A DNA stretch of 64,000 nt from a virus, in the IMG/VR virus record IMGVR_UViG_3300045988_170943, positions 224,001 through 288,000 of that record, one strand, 5' to 3'. The position numbers and the translations under genes are program-made. The notes under the pieces are model-generated. The model was not told the origin of the DNA. It did no database searches and worked only from the letters and a program-made list of their open reading frames with translations. Below, one piece after another: positions 18,942-47,404 of the stretch (its first letter is position 1; every line of letters starts with the position of its first letter).

Positions 18942-21395
18942 TTGGCGGTCGATACCGACAGAGATTACGACTTCGACGACGACACCCCCCGCAATAACGA
19001 ACCTGAAGGTGACGGCGGCGGCAGAATCCTGGTTGCTGTCCTAGCCGTCCTGTTTCTGCCCGCCATCATCATCGCATGGGCCATCTACTACCTGGGGCTC
19101 GCAAAGGGGCGCCAGAAAAGGTCTGTGATCCTCTCCGGCACCCTCACCATGATCGTGATCGCCCTCATGTACGGGTCCCTGTCCAATGCCACAGCCAGAG
19201 CCAGTGCCGCACTAAGTGACGTCACAGGCATCACCCAGAACTGGACCGAGTACATTCCCCTACTAGTCGTCGTCAGTGTCATCCTCGGCGCAGTCGGCGG
19301 GTTCACCCTGACCGTGATCCAGGTTGGCAGACTCATCAAAAACCCGTACCTGCTGCACATGGAAGGCCCCTGGAAGAACTTCACGTTCCGGCCAACCCCA
19401 CTGGAGAACAGGCGCACCAAAAAACTCGTCACCCAGTTGAAAGACGGGTCACTGTCAGACAAGGACAAAGCCCCCCTTGGCATCACCACCAAAATCTATG
19501 AAGACCCCGAGGAGAACAAGAATACAGGTGGACTGAAAACCAAGGCCACATGCGAGGTCGCCTACCGGTACCAGGCGGACGCACGCAAAAACACCGTCAT
19601 GTCCGGTGGTGTCGGATCCGGTAAGACCATCACCATGCTGTCCATGATCCGCTCCGACATCGTGCACGGACTCCCCGTCATCATGATCGACATGAAACGC
19701 GACCCTGAGGTGTCAGCGAAACTCGCCCGCTGGTCCAAGGAGAACGGACGCAACTTCTACCACTTCGTGAACGGAGACCCCCAGGACTACGACGTACCTC
19801 ACTCCGCCGGGCAAGCCTCCTATGACCCACTCATCAACGGCGGTGCAGCCAAGGCAGACATGATCCTCGGGATGCGCGAGTGGGACACCAGCAGCGAAGT
19901 ATACAAGGGCAATGTCCGCCAGTTGCTCCAGGTCACCTTCCAGATGCTTAGACAAGCCGACCGCACCAGAGCAGACCGCATCGACTGGAGCCACGGAGGC
20001 ATCAGCCAACTCGCCTCCGCCATCAAAGACAACAACGCCTTCACTGACCTACTCATGGCCTGCAAAGGGCGCCCTATCTACGACGACGCACAGGCAGTAG
20101 ACCAAGGATCCCGCCACAAGTCCGGGAAACTCTACGGCGCCATGGATGAGGTGCAAGGGTACATGCGCACCCTCACCGCGTCAGCCTATGGCCCATGGCT
20201 ACGTACCGGCGTCACCGACCGTAACATCGACCTCTACGAACTCACAAAGGACGAAAACAGCGGGAACGTCATCCTGTTCTCCATCAACTCCGACAGTGAG
20301 AAAGACTTCGCCGCCTACCTGGGTGCACTCATCATGGCGGACATCAGCGCTGTCAGTGCTCTCAGGCGAAACCGCGGACTGAAGAACCCAGTCAACATCT
20401 ACATCGACGAATTCCAGATCATCCCCCCCACCACACTGGGCGGCATCCTAGAAAAAGCGCGCGCATCCGGGTTCGCCACCACCCTAGCCAGCCAGTCGTT
20501 GGAGCAGGTTATCGTCAAGTCCGAACGCAACGGCGAAGCAAACGTCAACAACATCCTCGACACATCCAGCCACTTCATCATCCACAACGGCGCCTACTTT
20601 GACTCCGCCACCAGGCTAGCGAAAATCGTCGGCGAGGCATGGTTCCCGAAATGGTCCACAGTCAACGACTCCAAGACACACTTCTTCTCGTTCAACTGGA
20701 ACAACAGACGTGACAGCATTGTCCGCAACGACCGAGAACAACGGTACATTGTTGACCCATCTGAGTTCCAGAAACTCAGCGCGCCTTCCCCATCAAACGG
20801 GTTCCTGACCGAAGCGATCATCATCGACAAGTCCACGGTTGACCCACGCTACTCCGGCAGGCCCAGGGCGCTAGCACGCAAGGTGCGGATGATCCCAGAC
20901 GACGCAGTACTCGCCTCATACCCACTGTCCAGAGTCGGAGAGAGCGACTATGCGGGACAGCAGCCAGACAATAAGGAGATGCACCTAGTTGTTGACGGTG
21001 ATACAACTGAGGGCCAGCATGGCGACCACATCTGGGAGGATGACGCCTTCCAGACCGAACCGGACACACAAGGGTACGACCCTGCTGGTTACGGCGACGA
21101 GGATGAGGACGGCGGATTCGGCTGGGTCAGTGACGACAAGGAGCCAGCAGACCCCCAAGAGGTAGAACAGGGCAAGACTGAAACAGGCTACAGCGCACCC
21201 GCCACCAGCAGTCCTGATCGCTCCCGCATCGATTACACCACACCAGCCCATGAGGAACCAGTCTACAACCAGCCTGAGCCCACGACACCCCCAGAGGAAG
21301 ACTATGGTGCCGGGTTCGGGTGGGTCACAGACAGCAGCGACAATACCGAACAGGAAGACCCCAGGACAGTGGGGCTTCCAGAACTTGGTTTCTGA
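18942..21395 (+). CDS. type IV coupling protein (VirD4/TraG/TcpA-like FtsK-family ATPase)
   Basis: 2-3 N-terminal TM helices, Walker A MSGGVGSGKTIT followed by IMIDMKRDPE (T4CP DPKGE-like), Walker B NIYIDEFQIIP, a TTLASQSLEQV Q-motif and an acidic C-terminal tail. The start is a TTG at 18942 with an aggag RBS. Confidence 0.7.
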   Translation: MAVDTDRDYDFDDDTPRNNEPEGDGGGRILVAVLAVLFLPAIIIAWAIYYLGLAKGRQKRSVILSGTLTMIVIALMYGSLSNATARASAALSDVTGITQNWTEYIPLLVVVSVILGAVGGFTLTVIQVGRLIKNPYLLHMEGPWKNFTFRPTPLENRRTKKLVTQLKDGSLSDKDKAPLGITTKIYEDPEENKNTGGLKTKATCEVAYRYQADARKNTVMSGGVGSGKTITMLSMIRSDIVHGLPVIMIDMKRDPEVSAKLARWSKENGRNFYHFVNGDPQDYDVPHSAGQASYDPLINGGAAKADMILGMREWDTSSEVYKGNVRQLLQVTFQMLRQADRTRADRIDWSHGGISQLASAIKDNNAFTDLLMACKGRPIYDDAQAVDQGSRHKSGKLYGAMDEVQGYMRTLTASAYGPWLRTGVTDRNIDLYELTKDENSGNVILFSINSDSEKDFAAYLGALIMADISAVSALRRNRGLKNPVNIYIDEFQIIPPTTLGGILEKARASGFATTLASQSLEQVIVKSERNGEANVNNILDTSSHFIIHNGAYFDSATRLAKIVGEAWFPKWSTVNDSKTHFFSFNWNNRRDSIVRNDREQRYIVDPSEFQKLSAPSPSNGFLTEAIIIDKSTVDPRYSGRPRALARKVRMIPDDAVLASYPLSRVGESDYAGQQPDNKEMHLVVDGDTTEGQHGDHIWEDDAFQTEPDTQGYDPAGYGDEDEDGGFGWVSDDKEPADPQEVEQGKTETGYSAPATSSPDRSRIDYTTPAHEEPVYNQPEPTTPPEEDYGAGFGWVTDSSDNTEQEDPRTVGLPELGF

Positions 21396-21490
21396 GGGGC
21401 AAGCACCGCACGCATTGCCACGTAAACACACCAGACGCACGTTTCCTCGATATTTTTTGCGATTCTACTTAACATTTTTATGGAGGGGTA

Positions 21491-23338
21491 ATGCCAGACC
21501 CGATCAACGTCCCTACACCCCCATCCAGGAGAAGGGGAGATATGACGCCACCTAGGAGAGGCGCCACCAACAACCGTGGGCGCACAACCCTGGGGACCCC
21601 TCCGTCCGTGCCTTCAGCACCCGGTGCCCTACCAGACCTTGGCAACATTCCAGGCCCCCGGCAGCGCCCAGGTAGGGCACCGGAGGCTAATGCTACGCCA
21701 CGCCGTACCCCCGCCAGCAGCCTCAAGGTTCCTGGGCTCGCACCAAGCCGCGGCCCAGTACGCACCCCTGACAGGGCAACCACTCCTGACAGGGTGGTAC
21801 GCCAGGAAAGAGTCGTCAACCAGTACGATGATGGGGAAGACCCTTTTGAGCAGATTCCCGTCCGAGACCAGGTTGATGTTGAAGACTACGAGGACTATGA
21901 GGCTGAGCACGTAGAGGTGGACACCACCCCCGAACGTCAACCATCTCTCCGCACCCCCACACCCAGTAGCGCTGACAGTGGCGAGGATGACCATGAGGAC
22001 ACCACCGAGCCTGCACCTAAGAAGAAGGGCATGTTCGGTCGCAAAGCCAAGAGCAGCGAATCCGCGTCGAAAAAGCACACCAAGTCCAGTGCACCCACTA
22101 AAACCAGCACCCCATCCATCCTGGATGATGACGAAGACGAACTCGGGTTCAAGAGGAACTTCATCGACAAGAAGAACAAACGCCTCCTCCCATTCGGCAA
22201 GAATACCGGCAGCAGCGGAGACCGAAGAAAAGGCCGCAAGGTCCGCAATAAGGACATCGACCCCCGCAAAAACAGGATCATCAAGATCAACGGGTACCGC
22301 ATCTTCTTCCTCACTGCCTGTCTCGCACTATTGGCGCTAGGAGCCTACAATGCCTGGTTCCCACAGAAAGCACTCACCGTCGATGAGACAGCACAGGTAG
22401 CCCAGCAGGCCCTCGGCAGGACAAACTTCCCAGAAGCACGAGGAGAAGGATTCGCCAAGGACTTTCTGCAAGCCTACCTGACCACCAGCGACGAAACCTC
22501 CCAGCAGGCCCTCGCATACTTCTTCAACGGAACCCTAGAGAACGCGAACAACTCCAGCGCGGAGACAAACCGTCAGACATCAGCCGACTATAAGCAACAA
22601 ATCCTGTACGGCCCAACAGTCTACTCAGCCACCAGCGTCACAGACCAGGTTGCCACCTATGTGGTTGGAGCACTCGTGAAGGCAGTCCCAGCGGACGGCA
22701 GCACCCCCGCCCCGGACAGCAACGGAAAAACCGGCGGCGAGGCAACATGGATGTTCTACTCCATCAACGTCTTCTACGACAAGGCCAGCGACCGACTGTT
22801 CATCACACCAGACTCCCCTACCGTCGTACCGAACATGAACGTTGGTAGTTCCCGCGACCTTCCAGGGCCGCAGTCACTCGGAACTGGGGAATCGGACTCC
22901 GACCTCAAGTCGAAGGTGTCATCCACCGTCCTCGGGTTCATGTCCGCTTATGCGACCTCCTCCCCCCAGGACCACACGGCACTCGACCAGTACGTAGTCA
23001 ACGATGCACCCCAGGAACTCAAGACGGGCCTGTCTGGTACGTACTCGTTCGACGGAAATGTGAACAATGCGGTCACCTTTGAGGCGTTCCCCACAAAGGA
23101 CGCTAACGTAGCCAAGGTGAAGGTGACTGTCAACTGGAAGAGATCACTGGGCGCTAACGGTAGCCAGTCAGCGAGGTACACGTCAACCTATGTGATGACG
23201 CTACAGAACGTGTCCGGTAAGTGGCAGGTGTCAAAGTTCTCGCCGTTCACGTACCTTCCTGACGAATCCGAGTCCGTCAACAACAGTAATGGAGACCAGA
23301 AGGCGGCCGCATCGGATGGCAGCACCAGCGGATCCTGA
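21491..23338 (+). CDS. hypothetical membrane protein with a Pro/Arg-rich cytoplasmic N-terminal region
   Basis: ATG with a ggagggg RBS. A Pro-rich N-terminus is followed by one TM segment (IFFLTACLALLALGAYNAWF) and a large extracytoplasmic domain. Confidence 0.5.
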   Translation: MPDPINVPTPPSRRRGDMTPPRRGATNNRGRTTLGTPPSVPSAPGALPDLGNIPGPRQRPGRAPEANATPRRTPASSLKVPGLAPSRGPVRTPDRATTPDRVVRQERVVNQYDDGEDPFEQIPVRDQVDVEDYEDYEAEHVEVDTTPERQPSLRTPTPSSADSGEDDHEDTTEPAPKKKGMFGRKAKSSESASKKHTKSSAPTKTSTPSILDDDEDELGFKRNFIDKKNKRLLPFGKNTGSSGDRRKGRKVRNKDIDPRKNRIIKINGYRIFFLTACLALLALGAYNAWFPQKALTVDETAQVAQQALGRTNFPEARGEGFAKDFLQAYLTTSDETSQQALAYFFNGTLENANNSSAETNRQTSADYKQQILYGPTVYSATSVTDQVATYVVGALVKAVPADGSTPAPDSNGKTGGEATWMFYSINVFYDKASDRLFITPDSPTVVPNMNVGSSRDLPGPQSLGTGESDSDLKSKVSSTVLGFMSAYATSSPQDHTALDQYVVNDAPQELKTGLSGTYSFDGNVNNAVTFEAFPTKDANVAKVKVTVNWKRSLGANGSQSARYTSTYVMTLQNVSGKWQVSKFSPFTYLPDESESVNNSNGDQKAAASDGSTSGS

Positions 23339-23409
23339 CAGCAAACAGAAGCATTTATCAAAAACATGTAGAAATATTTGATATTGGTCAGAAACTCTTA
23401 CACAACCGG

Positions 23410-23459: not shown

Positions 23460-23780
23460 ATGATCCTAGGAGCAATTCTAAGCGGGTTGCTGAGTATCCC
23501 CGCTGGCGGTCTTGCAGCCCTACAGAACGACCTGGTTCGTAACTGGATCGGACCAGCCGCACTGATTGTTGTTGCCGCTGTCGCAGTGAAGCACCTGATT
23601 AAGGGTGAGCCACGTAAGATGGCCATCTATGCTGTTGCCGCTATTCTCGGCTTCGTTATCATCTACGGTGCTCCAGTACTTGTCGGTGGCGAGGACGCAA
23701 GCGTAACCAGGACCGTCGTTAACACGACTAAGAACAACATTAACGTCGCTACAGCACCCTTGGTACTCGACGCGAGTTGA
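23460..23780 (+). CDS. small two-helix membrane protein; candidate VirB2/TrbC-like conjugative pilin
   Basis: 106 aa with two hydrophobic helices (LSGLLSIPAGGLAAL... and IYAVAAILGFVIIYGAPVLV). It sits immediately downstream of the coupling-protein genes. Confidence 0.4.
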   Translation: MILGAILSGLLSIPAGGLAALQNDLVRNWIGPAALIVVAAVAVKHLIKGEPRKMAIYAVAAILGFVIIYGAPVLVGGEDASVTRTVVNTTKNNINVATAPLVLDAS

Positions 23781-23940: not shown

Positions 23941-25296
23941 ATGCTAGGACATAGAAGCAAACTTGACGTTGCAGTACAGTCAGCCGTGGACAACATTCTC
24001 TTCTCGAAGAAAGAAGCGTGGGCCTACTATCGCCTATCAACAACTGTTTACGACTTCCTGGCGTCTCAGCAGAAAATAGAAACCGGCCTGAGAATCACCA
24101 GCGCGTTCGCCAACATCATGTCCAACAAACAAGACTCCGTTGACGGGCACCTCATCGTCACAAACGTCCCCCTCGATGTTGACGCCTGGGAGGCCCAAAT
24201 CCTGGGAGTCATGGAGGACCACCCTGAAGGCCCAGGGTTTAAACGATTCATGGCCCAACAGAACGCCTTCCTCCGCAAGCGCGAGTACTCCAGGCGCGTC
24301 TGCTACGTGGGAATCAACCTAGGAGGCAGGAATACCCTCGACTTCACAAACCTTAACGTCCTGGAGTCGGGCTTCAAGAACGCCACAGAGACACTGAAAC
24401 AGTGGATCGACAAGATGTGGCACCAAAAGGACGGCACTGTTGACAAGGCTGAGGAGGACATGTACCGGCGTCGAGAGGAGGATATGTACGCAATCCTGTC
24501 CAATGGTGCTCTCCAGGCGCAGCGGGCCACCACTGAGGAGATACTGTTGGCGATTAAGCGCATGTTCTACCCACACATGCCCGCACCTCATCTCGAAATT
24601 GATCACAGTAACAGACTGTCGCAAGGTGACATGGACATTGAGATGCTGGGGCAGATCACCCCCAAGGCAAGGTTCCTGAAGTTCACGCAGCCATATGAGA
24701 ACATCGAGTTAGAGTCCTACCGGGCGTGCCTGACGTTTACCAGGTTCCCGAAGACATTCACGTTCCCCTATGACAACTTCCCGTTCCTGTACCTCCCAGC
24801 GACAATGAACGTCCCATTCACCGCTTTCAGCCGATTCACGCTCTACCCTAACGCCAAGATGAAATCTGATGTTGAACGCAAGTCCAAAGAGATGCGCGAC
24901 GAGGTTGACAACATCATGGCGACCCGTGACGCCAGTGACGGGATGATGAGTGGCCTACCAGCCGGTGTCGCTGAGACCATTGAGGACCTGGAGCAGATCA
25001 AGGCGATGCTGGAGGAAGACAAGGTGCCGTGGCTACGGGCCTCCTACCACCTCGTCCTTGAAGGGCCGACAGAGAAGTTCATTCAAGATGTCTACGCCGC
25101 GTTACGCCAGGAGTACCAGGACCGGGATACGGTGATCACCTGGACGTCCGGCGACCAGATGGACCTGTTCTTGGAGCAGATGCCAGGCGACACGAAGCGA
25201 ATCAAGTCTTTTGAGTTTATCACGAACCTGGCTCTATTAACAACCAGCGGTTTCAACTTCGCGTCCGAGATCGGGGACCGAATTTACGGCCTGTGA
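23941..25296 (+). CDS. hypothetical protein
   Basis: 451-aa ORF with an ATG and a gaagaggaa RBS. No nucleotide-binding motif. Confidence 0.45.
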   Translation: MLGHRSKLDVAVQSAVDNILFSKKEAWAYYRLSTTVYDFLASQQKIETGLRITSAFANIMSNKQDSVDGHLIVTNVPLDVDAWEAQILGVMEDHPEGPGFKRFMAQQNAFLRKREYSRRVCYVGINLGGRNTLDFTNLNVLESGFKNATETLKQWIDKMWHQKDGTVDKAEEDMYRRREEDMYAILSNGALQAQRATTEEILLAIKRMFYPHMPAPHLEIDHSNRLSQGDMDIEMLGQITPKARFLKFTQPYENIELESYRACLTFTRFPKTFTFPYDNFPFLYLPATMNVPFTAFSRFTLYPNAKMKSDVERKSKEMRDEVDNIMATRDASDGMMSGLPAGVAETIEDLEQIKAMLEEDKVPWLRASYHLVLEGPTEKFIQDVYAALRQEYQDRDTVITWTSGDQMDLFLEQMPGDTKRIKSFEFITNLALLTTSGFNFASEIGDRIYGL

Positions 25297-25358: not shown

Positions 25359-26237
25359 ATGGCTAGAAGACGTTCACGCGGTCGTGGAGGATCCGCCATG
25401 AAGCGATTCGTCATGACCCCAGTCGCTTTCTTGATCGTTGTGGGCCTGATCTATGGGGTAGCCCAGATCAACGGAATTCACAGCATCAAGGACGCCCTGA
25501 ACTACATGCGCGTGATCAGTGACGAAACGGGCACGAAAGTCAACAACTGCGTTGGCGGGAAGGACTGCAAGATCCTGCCTGACGGGTCCACCACACCAAC
25601 AGGATCCGCGGACCAGGGGGCAGTCAGCAGCGGCAGTCAGGCCGATACGAGCGGGGGAAGCACCTCAAACGGGCAGGAGAGCAACAGTGGGGCTGAGGCA
25701 CCCACTGGTGACAACAAGTACCAGGCGGCCCTGAATAACCTGGCCATTGCGCCAGCAAAAAAGGTCGCCTACAAGCGTAGCGAGTGGAAGCACTGGGTGG
25801 ACGTCAACGGCAAGTGCAACGCCCGCGAGCAGACCCTTGTCAACCAGGGTAAGAACGTCAAGACCGACACCAAAACCTGCCGGGTTCTCAGTGGCACCTG
25901 GGTTGACCCCTACAGTGGGGAAACCATCACCAACCCCAAGAACATCGACATTGATCACGTAATCCCCCTGGGGTATGTGGCGAGAAGCGGCGGGCAGGAC
26001 TGGAGTCCACAGAAGAAACAGGAGTACGCCAATGACGTGGACACTGTTCTGCTGGTGACATCCGCGAAGGAGAACCGGTCCAAGTCTGACAAGGGACCAG
26101 CCGACTACATGCCACCAAACAGTGCTTACGCCTGCACATACGCCCAGAAGTGGATCGACATTGCCGGAAAGTACCAGATCAGCATCACTCAGGCTGACAA
26201 ACAGACCCTATCCGACGCTCTCACCAAGTGTAAATGA
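25359..26237 (+). CDS. secreted or membrane-anchored HNH nuclease of the DUF1524 (GmrSD C-terminal-like) type
   Basis: N-terminal signal/TM (MKRFVMTPVAFLIVVGLIYG), then a Ser/Gly-rich linker, then YKRSEWKHWVDVNGKCNAREQTLV ... NIDIDHVIPL ... ENRSKSDKGPADYMPP. This matches the DUF1524 HNH pattern (W.HW.D.DGDGC..R..VL / DH.VP / N...K.DK). Confidence 0.55.
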   Translation: MARRRSRGRGGSAMKRFVMTPVAFLIVVGLIYGVAQINGIHSIKDALNYMRVISDETGTKVNNCVGGKDCKILPDGSTTPTGSADQGAVSSGSQADTSGGSTSNGQESNSGAEAPTGDNKYQAALNNLAIAPAKKVAYKRSEWKHWVDVNGKCNAREQTLVNQGKNVKTDTKTCRVLSGTWVDPYSGETITNPKNIDIDHVIPLGYVARSGGQDWSPQKKQEYANDVDTVLLVTSAKENRSKSDKGPADYMPPNSAYACTYAQKWIDIAGKYQISITQADKQTLSDALTKCK

Positions 26238-26284: not shown

Positions 26285-27142
26285 ATGTCAACAGCCGCCA
26301 ACCGAGCCAAGGCTGCCGAAAGGTTCAGGCAGCAGAAGAACCAGGCGGAACACAGTAACTACGATGTTGGTGCCAGCCATATGAGCATCGAAGGGAAGTT
26401 GCGCCTCCTAGAGGAGATGGACCGTGGCGACCTTGTTGGCATCTTCAAGGAATGGCAGCCTAAGGTATCGAAGCGTCGCCGCCGTGGCGCTCCGCTGGAT
26501 CAGCGTGTCTCCATCACCGTCACCGACATGGAGCGCACCAACCTGAACGACGAAATCAAGACGATCAAGATGACTGAGAACATAAGCATGAGCCAGTTCA
26601 TCCGTAACAGGGCCATAGCCTCCGTCGATATCGTTGGGTGGCGTGACATCGCAGAAAAGGCGCTCGCGGAGATCGAGGACACAGTAAAGAACCAGGCGGC
26701 CATGCGCAAAAAGCGGTCCGCCTTGAACCTCCAGGCAGACGAGGAGACAGACCCCGCGACCGCAGCCTACATTCGGGCACAGGTTGACGACATCACCCGC
26801 CGCCTGGATCGCATCGTCTCCAAGCCACAATCCCGTAAACGTCGCCTGTCAGGCCGCATGTCTATGCCTGAGGCGGAGCAGGTGAAGTGGCGCGCACAAC
26901 GCCTCTGCATCTCTACGAGTGACTATCTGCGGATGATGATCTTCAACCTGGAGCCGAACGGTATTGCCGACTGTCACATGAGCCTGGACGCGAAGCGCCT
27001 CTTCTACATCTCGATCATCGAGGTTGCTCAGAACGGTTGGGGTACTCCACCATCTATCTACCAGTGCTCCCAGTGTGAGAACTACATGGATGAGATTAGG
27101 CGTCTGCGCAGTGAGGTTGACCAGTTGCGCGCATTCACGTAA
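26285..27142 (+). CDS. tandem ribbon-helix-helix MobC-like relaxosome accessory protein
   Basis: Two repeats match the MobC/RHH pattern R..V.v..tE...l...A...g.S.S.ylR: QRVSITVTDMERTNLNDEIKTIKMTENISMSQFIRNRAI and RRLSGRMSMPEAEQVKWRAQRLCISTSDYLRMMI. Confidence 0.45.
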   Translation: MSTAANRAKAAERFRQQKNQAEHSNYDVGASHMSIEGKLRLLEEMDRGDLVGIFKEWQPKVSKRRRRGAPLDQRVSITVTDMERTNLNDEIKTIKMTENISMSQFIRNRAIASVDIVGWRDIAEKALAEIEDTVKNQAAMRKKRSALNLQADEETDPATAAYIRAQVDDITRRLDRIVSKPQSRKRRLSGRMSMPEAEQVKWRAQRLCISTSDYLRMMIFNLEPNGIADCHMSLDAKRLFYISIIEVAQNGWGTPPSIYQCSQCENYMDEIRRLRSEVDQLRAFT

Positions 27143-27292: not shown

Positions 27293-27823
27293 ATGAGAAA
27301 GTTCCTCAAGGGCCTTAACTCAGACCGGGGAGAATCCCTCGTGTCAGTGCTCATCGTCATGCCGCTACTCGTCGTCATGCTTGTCACCATGGTTGACTTC
27401 AGCGTCTACATCCTCAACCAGGGGCAGGTACGCGCAGCAGCCCGAGACGCAGCCCGAACCGTCGCCATCTACGGAGGAAACGGAACCAGCAGCGGACAGA
27501 TCACCCCCATCGCCAAAGCATACGGCACTATCGAGTCATGCCCCAACCACACGTCGGCAGAGTGCTCCCTCATCAAGAAACTAGACAAGGACAGCGCCCT
27601 CGTCCACTCCCAGGTGAAAAACGTTCAGTGCACCCCTAGCATCGCCACCAAAATAGGTCAGAACGTCCACTGTGACGTCACCTGGGAGTACAAGGGCATC
27701 GCCGGATCCGCTCTACCGCTCATGCGCACCATCGGCGGGCTCAGCGGAGAAGTCAGCACACGAGGCACATCCGAGTCCGAGGTCCGCTACGACGGGGCAC
27801 AGGACCTCGTTTACACCAACTGA
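27293..27823 (+). CDS. TadE-like pseudopilin (Flp/Tad pilus minor pilin)
   Basis: N-terminus ...NSDRGESLVSVLIVMPLLVVMLVTMVDFSVYILNQGQVRAAARDAAR matches the TadE N-terminal domain (ERGS.AVEFALVLPVLL.....V.FG). ATG at 27293 with an aggagg RBS. Confidence 0.6.
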   Translation: MRKFLKGLNSDRGESLVSVLIVMPLLVVMLVTMVDFSVYILNQGQVRAAARDAARTVAIYGGNGTSSGQITPIAKAYGTIESCPNHTSAECSLIKKLDKDSALVHSQVKNVQCTPSIATKIGQNVHCDVTWEYKGIAGSALPLMRTIGGLSGEVSTRGTSESEVRYDGAQDLVYTN

Positions 27824-27843: not shown

Positions 27844-28506
27844 ATGCGAACATTCCGCCGCTACCGCCTCAAAAACCTACTAAACCACCTCTGCCGTAAC
27901 ACCAGCCTGGGTTTCAAGTCCGACGACGGCGATGGGGCCCTCACCCTGTCTATCGTGTTCGTGCCACTCGCCGTCATCTGTCTTGGGCTCACCATCAACA
28001 CGAGCCAGGTCGTGTCCAACAAATTCGAGTACGACACGATAGCCCAGTCATCCGCCGAGACCGCAGTGAAAACCATTGACGCGCGCGGAAACCTCGACGA
28101 GAAAGCCATCAAGGCACTCATCCGGGAGCACCGAGAACAGATGGAAGCCAGCACCGCATACTCCGGGACCTGCAACATCCAAGAGATCAATGGGAAGAAA
28201 GTCACCCTCCCCTACTACGAAGTGCGGCTAGAGACATCACGCAACGTCAAAGGTCGCCGCGTCAGCAGCACCTACAAGATAGACTCCTCCAACCCGAACA
28301 CTGTTGACGTGCCCGACATTGAAAACAAGAACACCCCATACAGGGTCATCTCAGCGGAAGTGTACACGGCCACATCCTCCCCATTCGTCGCTATCGGACT
28401 GCAACCCTGCAACTATCACAAGTCCACCGTAAGCGCCATCAGTTTCGGAAGCAACAGGGACCTCGGCGGCACCCACACCAAAGCAAAAAAGACCCCGAAA
28501 CCCTAA
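27844..28506 (+). CDS. TadE/TadG-like pseudopilin paralog
   Basis: DDGDGALTLSIVFVPLAVICLGLTINTSQVVSN resembles the TadE N-terminal hydrophobic segment. It sits directly after the first TadE-like gene. Confidence 0.45.
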   Translation: MRTFRRYRLKNLLNHLCRNTSLGFKSDDGDGALTLSIVFVPLAVICLGLTINTSQVVSNKFEYDTIAQSSAETAVKTIDARGNLDEKAIKALIREHREQMEASTAYSGTCNIQEINGKKVTLPYYEVRLETSRNVKGRRVSSTYKIDSSNPNTVDVPDIENKNTPYRVISAEVYTATSSPFVAIGLQPCNYHKSTVSAISFGSNRDLGGTHTKAKKTPKP

Positions 28507-35754: not shown

Positions 35755-36654
35755 ATGACAACAGAGAACTACGACACTGAGGGTGAGAACTTCGAGGAAC
35801 CTACCCTGAAAGAACGCATTGTCCGAACTGGGCTCATGGTTGTGCTCGTGGTGGCTGTAGCGGCAGGTGCTGTTACTGCCGTGAACTGGTGGGGAGCCCG
35901 AAATGAGCAGAACAAGGAGCCCGCATCGGTTGCCATGTCGGACACAGAAAAGACGAAGGTTGCCACAACTGCTGAACTGTTCCTCAGCAAGACCGGAAAC
36001 TTCGGGGTCGTCTCCGGTACCGTGGACCAACAGGGTGACAATGTGATCACTGTCGCTAACACTGTCTCCACCGCTCCAGAGAAATACCCGTCACTGTTCA
36101 TCACCAGGCAGATGGCGTACCGTAACGCCCTCCCCGTCATCGCTAAGGGGGCTCCCGCCTACATGGATGGTGTGTCAACCAGCAAGTGGTCCAACGAAAC
36201 CGACCTAGGGTACCTGATGGGATTCGAGTTGAAGGACTCTAAGGTGCAGCCCGCAGACAAGGCGTCATACATCACCTTGAATGGTAAAAGGGTCCTGGCG
36301 GTGAAAGCCAAGGGTACGTTCTCCAGCCGTGTCACTATGCGCGTCCAGAACGGCAATGATGTCGATTGGGATGGAACCTACACGGTACAGTCCAGGGGCT
36401 TCTCCGACCAGACGGTGGAGTTCACTCTCGTTCAGGTTGATGGCACATGGCTGGTGTTCTCCGTGGACAAGTTAGAGCACCCATTCCTGCTGGCTAACTG
36501 GAAGAACCCCATCTACGCGGGGTACGACTTGAAGGACTACAAGGTGACCTCCAGTATTCAGACGACTCGCGGCCTGGGCGGTAAAGGACAGCCGAACCAG
36601 AACTCGTCCCTGACACCAGAGCAGGCACAGAACATCACCCCACAGGGGAAGTAA
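35755..36654 (+). CDS. bitopic membrane protein; candidate VirB8/TcpC-like component
   Basis: Short cytoplasmic N-terminus, a single TM (LMVVLVVAVAAGAVTAV), then an extracytoplasmic domain of about 250 aa. ATG at 35755 with a caggggg RBS. The assignment rests on topology only. Confidence 0.35.
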   Translation: MTTENYDTEGENFEEPTLKERIVRTGLMVVLVVAVAAGAVTAVNWWGARNEQNKEPASVAMSDTEKTKVATTAELFLSKTGNFGVVSGTVDQQGDNVITVANTVSTAPEKYPSLFITRQMAYRNALPVIAKGAPAYMDGVSTSKWSNETDLGYLMGFELKDSKVQPADKASYITLNGKRVLAVKAKGTFSSRVTMRVQNGNDVDWDGTYTVQSRGFSDQTVEFTLVQVDGTWLVFSVDKLEHPFLLANWKNPIYAGYDLKDYKVTSSIQTTRGLGGKGQPNQNSSLTPEQAQNITPQGK

Positions 36655-36718
36655 CCAGAAAACCTATACCCCCACACACAGGGCACCACCATTCAGAAGC
36701 AACGAAGAGAGTTCACTT

Positions 36719-37540
36719 ATGGGGAAGCACGCGGCAGAGAACACACCACAACTACCAGCAGATGAGGGAAACTGGGAGCGGGATATGGACTCTGTGCTCG
36801 CCAGCATCGACACTCACACGGGCGGAGCAACCAACAGCGACACGAACCCCCAAGACGCCACACCCCCTGTAAACGCCAACGGCAGTGCCCCCAAGAAGAC
36901 AGCCCCGCCACTGGAGTTGGAAGCGGAAACCGCAATAGGCACTGATACTGCTACTGCCTATGAGGTTGATCTTGGCGACACGAGAAGCCACAGTGACGAG
37001 ACTGTAGCCAACCTGGGTGAAGAAGACGATACTGGCGACCTCAGCAACGACACCGCCAGTGTCGTGGATACCTACTTTGATGACGATGAGGAGTTCCTGG
37101 CTGGTGACGACAAGGTGCTAACCGAGGAGCAGGACATGGCCCTGTTCAAACAGTCCGGGAAGGTCGTCAAGTGGCGGGTGGAGAACCTGTACCGACCTAA
37201 CGGCGATTTTCGACGCGGCAACCTCGTTCGAGCCAACCCTCCAGTGCTCATCATCTCCGATAGTGATGGCAACGAGGTCGAGTTCATGGTCACCAGGGAG
37301 TTCGCCGCATCCATGAGGTCCGTGATGGGTGATGCTGAGATCGCACACATGTCCAGCACTCTGCCGCCGTGGGCCACACCAACCAGGAGACCGGGCGTAG
37401 CCAATACGTCAACATGGAAGGAGCGATGCGCCGAGTGGGCGAAGGAGCACAAGGTGAAGGCCACAGGATTGATCCTGCTGGCTATCTACATGCTGGCATC
37501 AATGGTCTCCCCATTTATCATGCGATATTTCGGCAGTTAA
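36719..37540 (+). CDS. hypothetical acidic protein with a C-terminal TM segment
   Basis: ATG with a gaagagag RBS and a C-terminal hydrophobic helix. Confidence 0.4.
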   Translation: MGKHAAENTPQLPADEGNWERDMDSVLASIDTHTGGATNSDTNPQDATPPVNANGSAPKKTAPPLELEAETAIGTDTATAYEVDLGDTRSHSDETVANLGEEDDTGDLSNDTASVVDTYFDDDEEFLAGDDKVLTEEQDMALFKQSGKVVKWRVENLYRPNGDFRRGNLVRANPPVLIISDSDGNEVEFMVTREFAASMRSVMGDAEIAHMSSTLPPWATPTRRPGVANTSTWKERCAEWAKEHKVKATGLILLAIYMLASMVSPFIMRYFGS

Positions 37541-37571
37541 CAGTCAGGTTCAATCACTGAAGGAATCTAGC

Positions 37572-38120
37572 ATGGCGGCTGGTCCAGGTGGCAAGAAAGT
37601 TCGCGTATCGACAGGTGTTCTCACCAGGATGCTGTCAACGGCCGCAGTCAGGTGGGTGGGCGTCGCGCTCGCTATCCTTGGCGTCGTCTACCTGTGTTTC
37701 GCAGCCACTCTGCTGCGCGTCGTTCTACTTCGGGACAACAGTGTCGTACCAGTGAAGAACCTGACGTTCGAGGGCGGTATAGCGCCAGTCGGGTCGAAGG
37801 TGCTCGTCGATCCTGGCAACCATGATGGTGGTATCCTTGACCACTTGAAACAGTCTCTCACCCCATCCAGGCAGGCCAGTGTCGTCACCATTGAGGCTGG
37901 CCCCATCGGCAGACTCCAGTACGCTGACCCGATCCTCACCGTCGATGGGAAGGCTGTGACAAAAATCCACAGCGAAGGCTACAGGGCTATCACTGAGGGC
38001 AGGGACGGCAAGTTCCTCAGAGATGAGTACGTAGTCCGCTGTGTTCAGGGTAACTGCACCCCAGGCGAGGTGTTCATCGTCCCGAAGGAGAAAGTCATCG
38101 GCCAGACCCTCCAGCAATAA
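37572..38120 (+). CDS. hypothetical single-pass membrane protein
   Basis: ATG with a gaagga RBS and an N-terminal TM. Confidence 0.4.
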   Translation: MAAGPGGKKVRVSTGVLTRMLSTAAVRWVGVALAILGVVYLCFAATLLRVVLLRDNSVVPVKNLTFEGGIAPVGSKVLVDPGNHDGGILDHLKQSLTPSRQASVVTIEAGPIGRLQYADPILTVDGKAVTKIHSEGYRAITEGRDGKFLRDEYVVRCVQGNCTPGEVFIVPKEKVIGQTLQQ

Positions 38121-39470: not shown

Positions 39471-39655
39471 ACAGATCGCTCCGGGTAGGAGAGCAGCCTC
39501 AAAGGTCAGCGGTCAACACTCGTCGTTAGGGTACTGCTGGTTGCGTTCACACCTAGCCTGTTGCTGGCTAACGTGTCGATATTTGGCGGGCACTTTAACA
39601 CGGGTGTAGCCATAATTGACAAAAATACGAGGCTTAGCAACAACAAGAGGTGACA

Positions 39656-43676: not shown

Positions 43677-43797
43677 TATCCACACAATCACCAGGGGCAC
43701 CTACAACGAGTTCACAGGCAACTTGGGGTGCCCCTGTGTACGTGTCGGTAACATGAACATGCCCCCGCACATACTATAGGTGTTTAGAGAACCCCGC

Positions 43798-46101: not shown

Positions 46102-46159
46102 CCAAAACTGGGGATGGTGATATTCGCCCATGATTCCAACATTTTAAGGGAGTAGACAC

Positions 46160-47404
46160 ATGAGCCTGTCACCACAGTGGCGCAACGTCATGGAGGCACT
46201 GTCCGACCCAGCCGTCTCCGAGGTGACAGCAAACGGGCCAGACTCATTCTTCGTATCCAGGGGCGGCACCCGCTACCACATGAAAGACGTCACCTTCAAA
46301 GACGTCGATGACTACATGCAGCAGATCGGCGAAAACCTCATCCCACTGGTCCGATCAGCACACGACTGGGACCCAAACGGCATCCTCTACGAAGGCTACC
46401 TGAGCGCCCGCATCCATGGAAAAAAGGTCGCGGGCCGGTGCACCATCGTCCTCCCCCCAGCCTGCCTGACCGCCCAGATCTGCATCACTAACCGTGTCGC
46501 CTCCCTCACCACCCTGGAAGACATCGCCAGCACCGGGTCCATGAGCACCGAGATGCTGGACTTCATCAAGGCGGCCGTAGACAGCGACCTCACCATCGCC
46601 GTCAGCGGATCCACAGGTGCCGGGAAGACCACCCTCATGGAAGCCTGCACGAAACGGTTCTCCAACACGTCAAGAATCGGTGTCGCTGAGGACATGCCCG
46701 AACTACACCTTGTCCAACCGAACGTCTCCTACCTTAACTCCGTACCCTGGAAACCCGGAATGAAGGAAGAAGAATCCGTGTCCCTGACCTGGGTCGTCCA
46801 ACAGTACCAGCGACTCAGGGTCGATAAGGTGATCGTTGGTGAGGTTCGCGGCAAGGAGTTCGCCGACTTCCTCATCGCCGCGAACTCCGGTCTGGGCGGC
46901 TCCATGATCACCCTCCACGCCGAAGATCCCCAGAACTGCCTAAACAAGATGACCGAGTTCGCGCTCGCCGGTGCACCAGGCAGGCCCATCAAGTCCATCA
47001 ACTCATCCATAGCGAACACCATCGACATCATCATCCAAATGGTCAAGACCCAGGACAAACGCAGACGGGTCTCACACATCCAGCAAGTCACCAGAACCGT
47101 GTCCGACGGCCCGGACGCCAAGATCGTCAGCGCACCCCTCTATTTGTGGGACAAGGAAACAGACACGTTCAGTAAGGCCGGGAACATAGAGGACGCCCTC
47201 AGGCAGAAGATGACAGCCCACGGCATCGACGTCCAAAGGTTCCTCACCTCAGAGATCGGCGCCAGATACCCCTCCCACGGCACAGTCGGCGGCATCACCC
47301 CACACAACAACACCATGCCTGCACCCACACCGGCCCCCGCAATGGGGACACCCGACACGAGTAGCACACAGCCCTTTCCAAGAGTCAGGCGCAGAACCAT
47401 ATGA
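46160..47404 (+). CDS. type II/IV secretion system ATPase (CpaF/TadA/VirB11 family)
   Basis: Walker A TIAVSGSTGAGKTTLM, Asp box IGVAEDMPEL and Walker B RVDKVIVGEVRGKEF, with a His box LGGSMITLHAED. Confidence 0.8.
   Translation: MSLSPQWRNVMEALSDPAVSEVTANGPDSFFVSRGGTRYHMKDVTFKDVDDYMQQIGENLIPLVRSAHDWDPNGILYEGYLSARIHGKKVAGRCTIVLPPACLTAQICITNRVASLTTLEDIASTGSMSTEMLDFIKAAVDSDLTIAVSGSTGAGKTTLMEACTKRFSNTSRIGVAEDMPELHLVQPNVSYLNSVPWKPGMKEEESVSLTWVVQQYQRLRVDKVIVGEVRGKEFADFLIAANSGLGGSMITLHAEDPQNCLNKMTEFALAGAPGRPIKSINSSIANTIDIIIQMVKTQDKRRRVSHIQQVTRTVSDGPDAKIVSAPLYLWDKETDTFSKAGNIEDALRQKMTAHGIDVQRFLTSEIGARYPSHGTVGGITPHNNTMPAPTPAPAMGTPDTSSTQPFPRVRRRTI

What the first reader, a model, noticed from the sequence alone, without database searches (positions are those of the whole stretch)
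18942..47404. Hybrid transfer/secretion gene set: T4CP + VirB1-like hydrolase + Tad pseudopilins + CpaF-like ATPase, with no recognisable VirB4 ATPase or relaxase
The window encodes a VirD4/TraG-type coupling protein (18942), a pilin-like protein (23460), a lysozyme+NlpC/P60 hydrolase (33761), a VirB8-like candidate (35755), VirB6-like giants, two TadE-like pseudopilins (27293, 27844), a type-I signal peptidase (12874) and a CpaF/TadA/VirB11-family ATPase (46160). Gram-positive conjugative T4SSs characteristically contain a VirB4 ATPase (TraE/TcpF/PrgJ-like) and lack VirB11. I could not find a VirB4-type Walker A/B protein in 64 kb; the only other P-loop proteins are the T4CP and an SMC-like ATPase. 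I also found no HUH relaxase next to the MobC-like gene (26285). This suggests either an atypical machine energised by a Tad/VirB11-type ATPase or a novel transfer apparatus. Alternatively the missing genes lie outside the window.
Basis: partly seen in the sequence, partly recalled or inferred. Interest (0 to 1): 0.7.

Follow-up and report, generated by a model that had tools for sequence, protein, structure and literature searches.

The report
Secretion system with a motor-less VirB4
The window holds a Gram-positive-type DNA-transfer (type IV secretion) gene set that is a conserved core of giant 0.2-0.8 Mb extrachromosomal elements, and its normally indispensable VirB4 motor protein is present but has lost its whole ATPase half.

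Summary
The claim of "no recognisable VirB4" is only half right. ORF 23941-25296 is a VirB4/TcpF homologue, supported by sequence, fold and gene position. It stops about 40 residues before the Walker A, so the window has a VirB4 scaffold without its motor.

This N-terminal-only form is a stable family of at least 90 clusters, all 448-501 aa. It is under very strong purifying selection (dN/dS 0.017). Its nearest full-length relatives lie in ordinary T4CP-TcpC-TcpE-VirB4-VirB6-hydrolase loci.

The window lies in a 418-kb contig. The module and its gene order recur on contigs of up to 727-828 kb with 36-57% GC. IMG/VR files these as viral genomes.

An intact coupling protein and an intact CpaF-like ATPase co-occur with the truncated VirB4. 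I found no VirB4 ATPase domain and no tRNA in about 118 kb surveyed. No relaxase turned up in the roughly 80 ORFs scanned against family libraries.

Most likely this is a Tcp-like transfer machine. VirB4 would act only as scaffold, and the coupling protein and/or the CpaF-like ATPase would supply the power. About 70% of the element was unreadable, so a second, complete VirB4 or a relaxase elsewhere is not excluded.

The parts
17044..18882 (+). Conserved acidic, partly low-complexity protein always immediately upstream of the T4CP. Function unknown; it does not look like a relaxase.
   Evidence: No Pfam, NCBIfam or PHROG hit. A profile against the PDB found nothing. The position is conserved in L008, L011, L014, L015 and L016 at 25-34% identity. 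Sequence inspected.
18942..21395 (+). Type IV coupling protein (VirD4/TraG family) with intact Walker A and B motifs and two N-terminal TM segments.
   Evidence: GSGK(T) and DEFQ are invariant across 22 homologues. Homologues lie on contigs of 185-727 kb, some carrying inteins.
21491..23338 (+). TcpC-domain (VirB8-like) protein with a ~270-aa N-terminal extension and one TM segment.
   Evidence: PF12642 at 2e-11, residues 321-580. TM at about residue 271. Homologous to the TcpC proteins of conventional loci L029 and L070-L095.
23460..23780 (+). Small membrane protein at the TcpD/TcpE (VirB3-like) position directly upstream of virB4.
   Evidence: Weak TcpD (E 0.007) and TrbC/VirB2 (E 0.006) hits. 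Position is conserved. Conventional relatives have a TcpE gene here.
23941..25296 (+). VirB4/TcpF N-terminal domain only (451 aa). It has no Walker A or B and ends about 40 residues before the P-loop position.
   Evidence: NF052333 TcpF at 5e-8, residues 17-447 against profile positions 8-429 of 813. BLASTP to P0108 at 3e-58, residues 15-448 against 9-429. The exhaustive search shows short nearest relatives, then ~820-aa relatives. AF2 pLDDT 82.7; Foldseek top 14 hits are all TrwK/VirB4. dN/dS 0.017.
25359..26237 (+). Predicted exported or membrane-anchored His-Me finger nuclease (GmrSD_C/HNH). It is inserted where the VirB4 C-terminal half would otherwise follow.
   Evidence: PF07510 at 3e-12. 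N-terminal TM or signal segment. Conserved in all relatives.
26285..27142 (+). NikA/MbpA-like ribbon-helix-helix DNA-binding protein, apparently with two RHH units. Candidate oriT/relaxosome accessory factor.
   Evidence: PF21983 at 3e-6 and MbpA at 9e-4. It is 53-72% identical in relatives and 35% identical to the NikA-like gene next to TcpE-VirB4 in L029. dN/dS 0.027.
27293..27823 (+). TadE-like minor pilin or pseudopilin.
   Evidence: PF07811 at 4.7e-8. TadE_Rv3655c at 0.017.
27844..28506 (+). Second TadE-like-looking membrane protein. The similarity is confined to the N-terminal hydrophobic segment.
   Evidence: No family hit. The N-terminus resembles 27293 by eye. Relative L016 carries an extra paralogue of 27236 here.
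30273..33704 (+). Extended VirB6-like polytopic membrane protein, number 1 of 3.
   Evidence: CD3337/EF1877 at 1.7e-4. At least 6 TM segments. BLAST E 4e-29 to the TrbL protein of L029.
33761..35665 (+). VirB1-like cell-wall hydrolase: membrane-anchored, with a lysozyme domain and an unconfirmed C-terminal Cys/His domain.
   Evidence: PF18013 at 2e-27. TM segments. The C-terminal domain is not confirmed.
35755..38120 (+). Three conserved single-pass membrane proteins (35755-36654, 36719-37540, 37572-38120) following the hydrolase. Roles unknown.
   Evidence: No family hits. Conserved in L046. The AF2 model of the first is unusable.
46160..47404 (+). CpaF/TadA/VirB11-family hexameric secretion ATPase, with intact Walker A, Asp box and His box.
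   Evidence: It is 47-69% identical in relatives, always next to the Rad50-like ATPase and the sigma-like protein. In L020/L047 it lies directly upstream of the T4CP.
50578..54717 (+). Extended VirB6-like membrane protein, number 2 of 3.
   Evidence: CD3337/EF1877 at 1.9e-7. BLAST to the L029 TrbL protein. Conserved in relatives.
54907..58068 (+). Extended VirB6-like membrane protein, number 3 of 3.
   Evidence: CD3337/EF1877 at 6e-10 and TrbL at 4.6e-4. BLAST E 6e-22 to the L029 TrbL protein.
12874..13413 (+). Type I signal peptidase (S26).
   Evidence: PF10502 at 2e-6. Conserved upstream in relatives.

Best explanation
The region is a Tcp/MPF_FA-like (Gram-positive-type) type IV secretion module. 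It has become a conserved, vertically inherited core of a family of giant extrachromosomal elements. Contigs reach 418 kb here and up to about 0.8 Mb in relatives.

Shown:
- The gene order is T4CP, TcpC(VirB8), small membrane protein, VirB4, ..., extended VirB6, hydrolase. Conventional relatives have the same order.
- Here VirB4 is cut down to its N-terminal domain and is kept under strong purifying selection.
- Five genes sit between VirB4 and VirB6: an exported nuclease, a NikA-like RHH protein, two TadE-like proteins and PhoH2.
- VirB6 is triplicated.
- A CpaF-like ATPase always accompanies the module.

Inferred mechanism:
- The VirB4 N-terminal domain keeps the structural job it has in solved T4SSs. 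There it dimerises, embeds in the membrane and holds the VirB3 and VirB8 tails.
- The motor work would be done by the coupling protein, whose ATPase domain is a paralogue of the lost VirB4 domain.
- The CpaF/VirB11-family hexamer may do this work as well or instead.
- The hydrolase opens the wall, and TcpC and the VirB6-like giants form the channel.
- The RHH protein marks the DNA substrate for a nickase not yet identified.
- The likely use is contact-dependent transfer of the giant element between monoderm cells.
For: Component identities.

VirB4 N-terminal domain:
- TcpF profile hit covers only profile positions 8-429 of 813.
- E 3e-58 to the 817-aa P0108, with the alignment ending about 40 aa before P0108's GSPGGGKT motif.
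- The AF2 model (pLDDT 82.7) matches only TrwK/VirB4 (E 6e-14 to 1e-11; the next hit is at 0.05).

Stable family:
- The ~50 nearest 50%-identity clusters and 90 clusters at 90% identity are all about 445-500 aa.
- dN/dS is 0.017, the lowest in the module.

Ancestry:
- Full-length relatives lie in T4CP-TcpC-TcpE-VirB4-VirB6-hydrolase loci: L029, L064, L065 and L070-L095.
- In all 34 conventional loci where the N-terminal-domain profile hit, it lay in one long ORF; nearly all also hit the C-terminal profile.

Conserved synteny across relatives with 36-57% GC.

Co-occurrence: T4CP, truncated VirB4 and the CpaF-like ATPase are found on contigs of identical length (385,639 and 697,643 bp). T4CP and truncated VirB4 also share 727,572 bp.

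Adjacency: the CpaF-like gene abuts the T4CP in L020/L047.

Absence: no VirB4 C-terminal domain was found by tblastn or HMM in the window plus flanks from about -16 to +102 kb.

Structural role of VirB4 N-terminal domains and of 'outside' VirB4 subunits: review PMC12857230.
Against: - Only about 118 kb of the roughly 394-418 kb element could be read, so a complete VirB4 and a relaxase may lie elsewhere.
- The link between the CpaF-like ATPase and the T4SS genes rests only on co-occurrence and on one adjacency. In the window the ATPase sits 25 kb from the T4CP, between a Rad50-like ATPase and a sigma-like factor.
- The T4SS genes are interspersed with unrelated functions (PhoH2, sigma factors, GNAT).
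- No relaxase or oriT was identified.
- Whether the element is a plasmid-like replicon or a huge phage is unresolved. It has an rIIA-like gene, homing endonucleases and inteins, and IMG/VR calls it viral.
- No experiment supports transfer.
Confidence: 0.5

Rival explanations
1. Ordinary complete T4SS with dispersed genes. A canonical VirB4 ATPase and a relaxase would be encoded elsewhere in the ~400-kb element. The 451-aa protein would then be an extra, ATPase-less structural paralogue, comparable to the degenerate second VirB4 copy of the Rickettsiales rvh system.
For: About 70% of the element was not readable with the tools. Giant elements such as Inocles and Hodors do carry complete VirB4 and VirD4. 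Full-length VirB4 of the sister lineage occurs on very large contigs of 725-885 kb.
Against: - T4SS genes normally cluster, and here the truncated gene occupies the exact virB4 slot between the VirB3-like gene and VirB6.
- An exhaustive phmmer search with the N-terminal domain found no full-length relative closer than ~29% identity; the three whose contexts were read (P0108, P0109, P0116) lie in conventional loci.
- A C-terminal-domain profile found no relative in IMG/VR, which holds a 394-kb, 96%-identical copy of this element.
- None of the 80 best metagenome hits lies on a contig whose length matches a family contig.
- Nothing was found in 118 kb surveyed.
Confidence: 0.22
2. Two unrelated things read as one. 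The first would be a T4SS-derived module (18.9-38 kb and 50.6-58 kb). The second would be a CpaF-like ATPase that belongs to another process, such as a Tad-like fibre made with the TadE-like proteins, or DNA metabolism together with the Rad50-like neighbour. On this view nothing replaces VirB4 and the coupling protein alone drives the machine.
For: The ATPase is always flanked by a Rad50/SbcC-like ATPase and a sigma-like factor, not by T4SS genes, in most relatives. It is closer to CpaF than to VirB11. TadE-like genes are present.
Against: No TadB/TadC platform (T2SSF), Flp pilin or prepilin peptidase was detected in the window, including among small ORFs. The TadE-like genes lie inside the T4SS block, 19 kb from the ATPase. 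In L020/L047 the ATPase is the immediate upstream neighbour of the T4CP.
Confidence: 0.18
3. The element is a true huge phage, and the T4SS-derived proteins have been taken over for a phage purpose. Possible purposes are envelope penetration, DNA delivery, superinfection control, or secretion of effectors during infection. They would not serve conjugation.
For: - IMG/VR lists the family as viral genomes of 108-437 kb.
- An rIIA-like gene is present (PHROG 612, 4e-39).
- The flanks carry a faint dNMP-kinase-like match, weak ThyX, Gly-radical and radical-SAM-activase matches, and NAD salvage genes.
- Relatives carry a SegE-like GIY-YIG endonuclease, inteins and a phage-type RNA ligase.
- The hydrolase domain is of the 'phage tail lysozyme' type.
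Against: - No terminase, portal, capsid or tail hit was found among 16 window and flank ORFs without a Pfam match scanned against PHROGs.
- The T4CP and truncated VirB4 have no tblastn match in 50,697 GenBank phage records.
- Similar megaplasmids (Hodors) were previously misfiled as huge phages.
- The flanks look like a cellular-style replicon: RecA, DnaB, RecG-like, Clp-like, class A PBP with PASTA, BI-1.
Confidence: 0.15
4. Decaying remnant: the T4SS is being lost and the truncated VirB4 is a pseudogene fragment.
For: The ATPase half is missing, and unrelated genes are inserted between virB4 and virB6.
Against: dN/dS is 0.017, with 64.5 synonymous against 4.5 non-synonymous differences. Length is constant in at least 90 clusters, at 33-52% identity across relatives of very different GC content. 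The T4CP and the CpaF-like ATPase keep their catalytic motifs.
Confidence: 0.03

Closest known systems
Tcp conjugation locus of Clostridium perfringens pCW3 and other MPF_FA systems (Tn916, ICEBs1, ICESt3)
   Same: The same parts appear in the same order: T4CP, TcpC-type VirB8, small TcpD/TcpE-like membrane protein directly upstream of virB4, extended (>700 aa) VirB6, and a membrane-anchored multi-domain wall hydrolase. The family description comes from PMC12857230.
   Different: VirB4/TcpF has no ATPase domain. A CpaF/VirB11-family ATPase is present, whereas the review states that Gram-positive T4SSs universally lack VirB11. There are three VirB6-like giants, TadE-like proteins and an exported nuclease inside the block. 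No relaxase was found. The carrier is a ~0.4 Mb element rather than a small plasmid or ICE.
Unnamed metagenomic T4SS loci with full-length VirB4 (P0108, P0109, P0116; loci L029, L064, L065, L070-L095)
   Same: These are the nearest sequence relatives of the VirB4 N-terminal domain (22-28% identity by BLASTP; E to 1e-49 in the exhaustive search). They are also the nearest relatives of the NikA-like protein (35%), TcpC and the VirB6-like proteins. The gene order is the same.
   Different: They keep a ~820-aa VirB4 with GSPGGGKT and DEAW motifs and a TcpE gene. None of the closest relatives (L029, L064, L065, L070-L095) shows a CpaF-like gene within 5-10 kb. Some lie on small contigs and some on 725-885 kb contigs of unknown nature.
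Hodor megaplasmids (human gut, >300 kb) and Inocles (oral Streptococcus, ~350 kb)
   Same: These are giant extrachromosomal elements with T4SS genes that were discovered in metagenomes. Hodors were originally filed among huge phages and carry Phage_lysozyme2 domains and hard-to-recognise VirB6.
   Different: Both are reported with conserved complete VirB4. Hodors have Rep_3/ParAB/sortases and a MOBH-like relaxase at 44-47% GC, and Inocles have 24-32% GC. The present element has 57% GC, and its T4CP family did not match any PLSDB plasmid above 24% identity.
Rickettsiales vir homologue (rvh) T4SS, second VirB4 copy
   Same: It may offer a precedent for an ATPase-deficient, structural VirB4. This comes from my own memory of PMC2653234, which appeared in the results but whose text I did not read.
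   Different: As I recall, that copy is full-length with degenerate motifs and coexists with a functional VirB4. Here the whole domain is deleted and no second copy has been found.
Tad pilus / actinobacterial TadA-family 'conjugal transfer-associated' ATPase neighbourhood (TIGR03819)
   Same: The best NCBIfam hit of 46160 is TIGR03819 (6e-40), and TadE-like proteins are present.
   Different: The score is far below the family cut-off (137 against 373 bits). No TadB/C, Flp, TadV or CpaE was detected.

Membership tests
Conjugative type IV secretion system, Gram-positive MPF_FA/Tcp type | VirB4 ATPase with Walker A and B motifs (the protein on whose phylogeny MPF classes are defined) | tested here: not met
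   The VirB4 homologue 23941-25296 has only the N-terminal domain. No C-terminal domain was found in the window or in flanks from about -16 to +102 kb. The rest of the element was not readable.
Conjugative type IV secretion system, Gram-positive MPF_FA/Tcp type | Type IV coupling protein | tested here: met
   18942-21395: PF10412, PF12696, intact P-loop and DEFQ motif.
Conjugative type IV secretion system, Gram-positive MPF_FA/Tcp type | VirB8-like TcpC protein, extended VirB6, VirB1-like hydrolase | tested here: met
   PF12642 at 2e-11. CD3337/EF1877 and TrbL hits plus BLAST to a TrbL protein. PF18013 at 2e-27.
Conjugative type IV secretion system, Gram-positive MPF_FA/Tcp type | VirB3-like TcpD/TcpE protein upstream of virB4 | tested here: inconclusive
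   23460-23780 is at the right place with one or two TM segments, but the TcpD hit is only E 0.007 and there is no TcpE hit.
Conjugative type IV secretion system, Gram-positive MPF_FA/Tcp type | Relaxase (MOB family) and oriT | tested here: not met
   No relaxase family hit was found in about 45 window ORFs or in the 10 downstream flank ORFs scanned with Pfam, nor in the precomputed Pfam for L001 and L003. Only a NikA-like accessory protein is present. The candidates 16993 and 41071 gave nothing against the PDB. The rest of the element is untested.
Tad (tight adherence) pilus | CpaF/TadA ATPase | tested here: met
   CpaF structures at 5e-33 and T2SSE at 4.7e-27, but below every NCBIfam curated cut-off.
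Tad (tight adherence) pilus | TadB/TadC platform (T2SSF), Flp pilin, TadV prepilin peptidase | tested here: not met
   No Pfam or NCBIfam hit in any window ORF scanned. No Flp-like small ORF in the gaps.
Tad (tight adherence) pilus | TadE/TadF pseudopilins | tested here: met
   27236/27293-27823 hits PF07811 at 4.7e-8. The second gene is similar only by eye.
Tailed huge phage | Terminase large subunit, portal, major capsid protein | tested here: inconclusive
   None of these families was hit by any ORF scanned: Pfam on about 45 window and 10 flank ORFs, PHROGs on 20 ORFs. Only about 30% of the element was readable. IMG/VR nevertheless lists it as viral.
Cellular (ultra-small bacterial) genome | tRNA genes and translation apparatus at normal density | tested here: not met
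   No tRNA was found in the window or in six flanking loci, about 118 kb in total. No Rfam family was found in the window. No relative of the T4CP was found in 185,579 GTDB species genomes.

The most novel reading that the evidence does not exclude
A whole lineage of type IV secretion systems works without a VirB4 motor. VirB4 would survive only as an N-terminal scaffold. Energy would come from the coupling protein together with a CpaF/VirB11-family ATPase, a combination reported as absent from Gram-positive-type systems. This machine would be the transmission apparatus of a widespread, undescribed family of 0.2-0.8 Mb extrachromosomal elements that databases currently label as huge phages.
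Probability: 0.35. Interest if true: 0.85.

Novelty: new variant of a known kind. Interest (0 to 1): 0.7.

Why it matters
VirB4 is treated as the one conserved ATPase of type IV secretion. T4SS classes are defined on its phylogeny (PMC12857230). As far as I know, detection tools such as CONJscan also require it.

A conserved, strongly selected clade that keeps only the structural half of VirB4 would matter in three ways:
1. It would separate the scaffold role of VirB4 from its motor role in a natural system.
2. It would show that a Gram-positive-type T4SS can recruit a CpaF/VirB11-family ATPase.
3. It would mean current screens miss these systems, so giant mobile elements are misfiled as non-conjugative or as phages.

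The carriers are of interest in their own right. They are 0.4-0.8 Mb replicons with cell-like replication, repair and wall-synthesis genes, found in human-associated and environmental metagenomes. They have no match in the GenBank phage or PLSDB plasmid collections.

Tried and rejected
- Megablast of 21 kb against PLSDB and GenBank phages found no match. tblastn of the T4CP against plasmids gave at best 24% identity, to Spiroplasma.
- Inocle identity is rejected on GC content, 32% against 57%. Hodor identity is unlikely: Hodors have full VirB4, Rep_3/ParAB/sortases and 44-47% GC.
- The search for a separately encoded VirB4 C-terminal half was negative. I ran tblastn of six C-terminal domains and an HMM against all fetched DNA; only P-loop noise in the T4CP appeared. 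The IMG/VR scan found no relative. The only oddity is a weak two-segment match (E 4e-4) to the orthologue of 38512-38976, which I judged to be chance.
- The 463-aa P-loop protein next to the T4CP in L047 is a classical AAA+ ATPase, not VirB4.
- The 906-aa downstream protein with Walker A at residue 500 looked VirB4-like by layout. By motifs it is RecG-like, and it gave no HMM hit.
- Relaxase candidates: 16993 is acidic and disordered with no hit. 41071 has no hit beyond a faint sigma-like signal. 26285 is a tandem RHH protein. 25359 is an exported nuclease.
- 47401 turned out to be sigma-70-like, not a Tad platform protein.
- The single-sequence AF2 model of 35704 was useless (pLDDT 39) and was not searched.
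- The cellular-genome idea was raised by 'Dojkabacteria' and 'Clostridiales' MAG labels and by 0.7-0.9 Mb contigs. I rejected it because there are no tRNAs, no GTDB relatives of the T4CP, and the labelled fragments are short contigs carrying the same block.
- Literature searches found no description of T4CPs in huge phages or of an ATPase-less VirB4.

Full report
**What is in the window**

All credible genes lie on the + strand. I scanned about 45 ORFs against Pfam, 30 against NCBIfam and 14 against PHROGs.

- A coupling protein, 18942-21395. It hits TrwB_AAD_bind and TraG-D_C, has Walker A GGVGSGKT and two N-terminal TM segments.
- A TcpC-domain protein, 21491-23338, which is the VirB8 equivalent.
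- A small membrane protein, 23460-23780, with weak TcpD and VirB2 hits.
- ORF 23941-25296, discussed below.
- An exported GmrSD_C/HNH nuclease, 25359-26237.
- A NikA/MbpA-like ribbon-helix-helix protein, 26285-27142.
- A TadE protein, 27293-27823, and a look-alike, 27844-28506.
- PhoH2 (PIN plus PhoH, 6e-88), 28702-30132.
- A first VirB6-like giant, 30273-33704.
- A membrane-anchored hydrolase with a Phage_lysozyme2 domain, 33761-35665.
- Three single-pass membrane proteins.
- Sigma-like factors at 39650 and 47401, and possibly 41071.
- A Rad50/SbcC-like ATPase, 43780-46101.
- A CpaF-like ATPase, 46160-47404.
- An HU-like small ORF and a GNAT.
- Two more VirB6-like giants, 50578-54717 and 54907-58068.

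A Walker A pattern occurs only in the T4CP, PhoH2, the Rad50-like protein and the CpaF-like protein. The corrections are listed under the observation check.

**The VirB4 question**

ORF 23941-25296 (451 aa, no P-loop) matches the NCBIfam model for the pCW3 VirB4 ATPase TcpF. The match covers only profile positions 8-429 of 813 (E 5e-8).

I ran an exhaustive phmmer search over 1.84 billion representative proteins. The nearest ~50 clusters are all 445-490 aa. From E ~1e-49 onward the hits are 780-850-aa proteins that match only through their first ~440 residues.

Those longer proteins carry GSPGGGK(T/S) and DEAW motifs after residue ~470. One even has an intein inside the P-loop.

Pairwise, residues 15-448 align to residues 9-429 of the 817-aa P0108 (28% identity, E 3e-58). 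The window protein therefore ends about 40 residues before the Walker A.

An AF2 model built from 40 homologues has pLDDT 82.7 and pTM 0.81. Against the PDB it hits only TrwK/VirB4 of plasmid R388. Fourteen chains score E 6e-14 to 1e-11 with TM 0.50-0.58 on the query, and the next hit is at E 0.05.

So a VirB4 homologue is present, but it is a domain-precise truncation.

**The truncation is old, stable and selected**

A second database search returned 90 clusters, all 448-501 aa and none with a Pfam ATPase domain. They lie on contigs of up to 727 kb.

Against a 96%-identical relative (L008), the gene shows 64.5 synonymous but only 4.5 non-synonymous differences. That gives dN/dS 0.017, the lowest in the module. 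For comparison:

| Gene | dN/dS |
|---|---|
| VirB4 N-terminal domain | 0.017 |
| NikA-like | 0.027 |
| PhoH2 | 0.05 |
| TcpC | 0.13 |
| T4CP | 0.15 |
| Nuclease | 0.20 |

A pseudogene reading is excluded.

**Where it came from**

The full-length relatives sit in ordinary Gram-positive-type T4SS loci:
- L029: TcpC, NikA-like (35% identical to 26285), TcpE, VirB4, TrbL/VirB6, M23 hydrolase.
- L064: T4CP, TcpC, small ORF, TcpE, VirB4, VirB6, hydrolase.
- L065 and some thirty metagenome loci show similar arrangements.

In all 34 such loci where the N-terminal-domain profile hit, the hit lay in one long ORF, and nearly all of those ORFs also hit the C-terminal profile.

The window has the same order, with three differences:
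- VirB4 is cut.
- Five genes are inserted before VirB6.
- VirB6 is triplicated.

By the criteria of a recent review, this is an MPF_FA/Tcp-like system. The criteria are TcpC-type VirB8, TcpD/E upstream of virB4 and extended VirB6 (PMC12857230). The same review states that Gram-positive T4SSs universally lack VirB11 and that their VirB4s retain all ATPase motifs. Both statements fail here.

**The carrier element**

The window is bases ~152,834-216,833 of a 418,686-bp ENA contig.

T4CP homologues (61 clusters) lie on contigs of up to 727 kb, some with inteins. IMG/VR holds the family as 'viral genomes' of 108-437 kb, including a 394-kb copy 96% identical to the window.

Gene order across 8-33 kb and 36-57 kb is conserved in relatives whose GC content ranges from 36 to 57%. 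An 828-kb JGI contig also carries the Rad50-like / CpaF-like / sigma-like / HU / GNAT / giant / giant block.

The T4CP, truncated VirB4 and CpaF-like ATPase are found on contigs of identical length (385,639 and 697,643 bp). The first two also share 727,572 bp.

There is no match in GenBank phages or PLSDB at the DNA level, and none for the T4CP or truncated VirB4 at the protein level in phages. No T4CP relative was found in GTDB species genomes.

**The flanks**

I read from about -16 kb to +102 kb, partly on the 96%-identical IMG/VR copy.
- Upstream are NAD-salvage genes and a faint dNMP-kinase-like match.
- Downstream are SSB, small Gly-radical and radical-SAM-activase-like genes, BI-1, a DUF2201/VWA protein, RecA, DnaB and a class A PBP with a PASTA domain.
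- Further downstream, by motif inspection only, are a Clp-like AAA+ protein, a RecG-like helicase and a ribonucleotide reductase with an intein.

There is no tRNA in ~118 kb. I therefore reject a cellular genome. ORF 8144-10741 is rIIA-like, and relatives carry SegE-like endonucleases and a phage-type RNA ligase.

No terminase, portal or capsid hit appeared among the ORFs scanned (20 against PHROGs, about 55 against Pfam), so I cannot decide between megaplasmid and huge phage.

Published precedents, Hodors and Inocles, show that such elements get misfiled as phages. Both of those have complete VirB4 and different composition. The PASTA-PBP, TcpC and S26 peptidase suggest a monoderm host. So do the sigma hits to actinobacterial SigA/HrdB and the best rIIA hits in actinophages. 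At 57% GC the host is plausibly an actinobacterium. This is inference only.

**The other ATPase**

46160-47404 keeps the Walker A, Asp-box and His-box residues. It is closest to solved CpaF (5e-33), then to Brucella VirB11 (7e-20). Its best NCBIfam hit is the TadA-family 'conjugal transfer-associated' ATPase, followed by VirB11 and TrbB, all below their cut-offs.

It is better conserved than the T4CP (69% against 54%, and 50% against 45%, in the same relatives). In the most distant relative it lies immediately upstream of the T4CP (L020/L047). No TadB/C, Flp or prepilin peptidase was detected.

**Mechanism (inferred)**

In solved T4SSs the VirB4 N-terminal domains dimerise and embed in the membrane. 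They also hold the VirB3 and VirB8 tails. The 'outside' VirB4 subunits are thought to be structural, and VirB11 docks under the central hexamer (PMC12857230).

The simplest reading is that the 451-aa protein keeps this scaffold role. The hexameric motor position would then be taken by the coupling protein, whose ATPase domain is a paralogue of the lost one. The CpaF-like ATPase may take it as well or instead. The rest of the machine is conventional. The substrate is probably the element itself, marked by the highly conserved RHH protein. The nickase is unknown.

**Limits**

- A complete VirB4 or a relaxase elsewhere remains possible. I give that about 0.2.
- The C-terminal-domain probes were built from one sister lineage and would miss a very different VirB4.
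- The link between the CpaF-like ATPase and the T4SS rests on co-occurrence and one adjacency.

**Verdict**

It is a Tcp-like T4SS with a domain-deleted, strongly selected VirB4 and an added CpaF-family ATPase, fixed in a widespread family of giant elements. I rate it a new variant of a known kind, interest 0.7.

Noticed in passing
whole window; contig ena:ERZ27262911:k119_16908 (418,686 bp), window = about 152,834-216,833: The window belongs to a giant element whose relatives reach 697-828 kb and span 36-57% GC. IMG/VR lists them as viral, yet they have no match in GenBank phages, PLSDB or GTDB. No tRNA was found in about 118 kb.
   Followed up: partly
window 8144-10741: An rIIA-like protein (PHROG 612, E 4e-39). 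The best tblastn coverage is in Streptomyces, Rhodococcus and Aerococcus phages. The 847-aa ORF before it (5249-7792) has no hit at all.
   Followed up: partly
window 1-1200: Base composition is inverted here: G+T-rich on the + strand, whereas the rest of the window is A+C-rich. The 296-aa ORF on the - strand (131-1021) may be the real gene rather than the called + strand ORF. Minus-strand genes lie just upstream in L003.
   Followed up: no
window 39650-40600, 47401-48498, possibly 41071-42366: Two or three divergent sigma-70-like factors lie within 9 kb. 47401 overlaps the stop of the CpaF-like gene and travels with it in all relatives. 41071 is one of the best conserved proteins (54-58% identity) but has only a faint sigma-like signal.
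   Followed up: partly
window 28702-30132: PhoH2 (PIN plus PhoH RNA helicase/RNase, E 6e-88) is wedged between the TadE-like genes and the first VirB6-like giant in every relative. It is very conserved (44-70% identity, dN/dS 0.05). Its role in this block is unexplained.
   Followed up: no
window 49916-50455: A GNAT acetyltransferase directly upstream of the second VirB6-like giant is the most conserved protein of the region (66-74% identity in relatives).
   Followed up: no
window 38512-38976 (orthologue L033:397-954): The orthologue gives a weak, two-segment, colinear match (E 4e-4 in a small database) to the middle of the VirB4 C-terminal-domain profile, without any P-loop. This is probably chance.
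   Followed up: partly
P0008, P0009, P0017, P0045 (T4CP); P0109 (VirB4); P0328, P0334, P0350 and others (CpaF-like); L154:19526-21160 (RNR): Homing-endonuclease Pfam domains, implying inteins, interrupt several T4CP homologues. P0109 has an intein inside the VirB4 Walker A, and the downstream RNR also appears to carry one. CpaF-like homologues of 570-720 aa suggest further inteins by length.
   Followed up: no
L016 and L017 (IMGVR_UViG_3300012642_000011, 437,576 bp): The same 21.9-kb stretch occurs twice, 100% identical and inverted, at mirror-image distances from the two contig ends. The contig is a fold-back, either an assembly artefact or very long inverted termini, so its stated size is unreliable.
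   Followed up: partly
L055:15902-18271 and neighbours (about 88-90 kb downstream of window start): The element encodes a class A penicillin-binding protein with a PASTA domain, a BI-1/YccA homologue, RecA and DnaB. By motif it also encodes a RecG-like helicase and a Clp-like AAA+ protein. This is an unusually cell-like gene set for a mobile element.
   Followed up: partly
L003:244-4662 (upstream of window): A complete-looking NAD salvage set lies just upstream of the window: NAPRTase, NAD synthase, nicotinamidase-like isochorismatase and a NrtR-type NUDIX regulator.
   Followed up: no
L068 (GCA_008011975.1, 'Candidatus Dojkabacteria'), P0284 ('Clostridiales bacterium' MAG): Short fragments of this element family have been binned into public MAGs of unrelated taxa. 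The taxonomic labels are probably binning errors.
   Followed up: partly
L070, L080, L081, L093, L090 (contigs of 725-885 kb): The sister T4SS lineage with full-length VirB4 also sits on very large contigs (41-45% GC). The matching VirB4 domain has only three relatives in GTDB genomes. These may be a second family of giant elements.
   Followed up: no
window 14543-14794 and 48911-49201: Two small genes fall below the 100-aa ORF list. By eye they are a glutaredoxin (83 aa) and an HU-like DNA-binding protein (96 aa). Precomputed Pfam hits on the same or orthologous genes agree.
   Followed up: no
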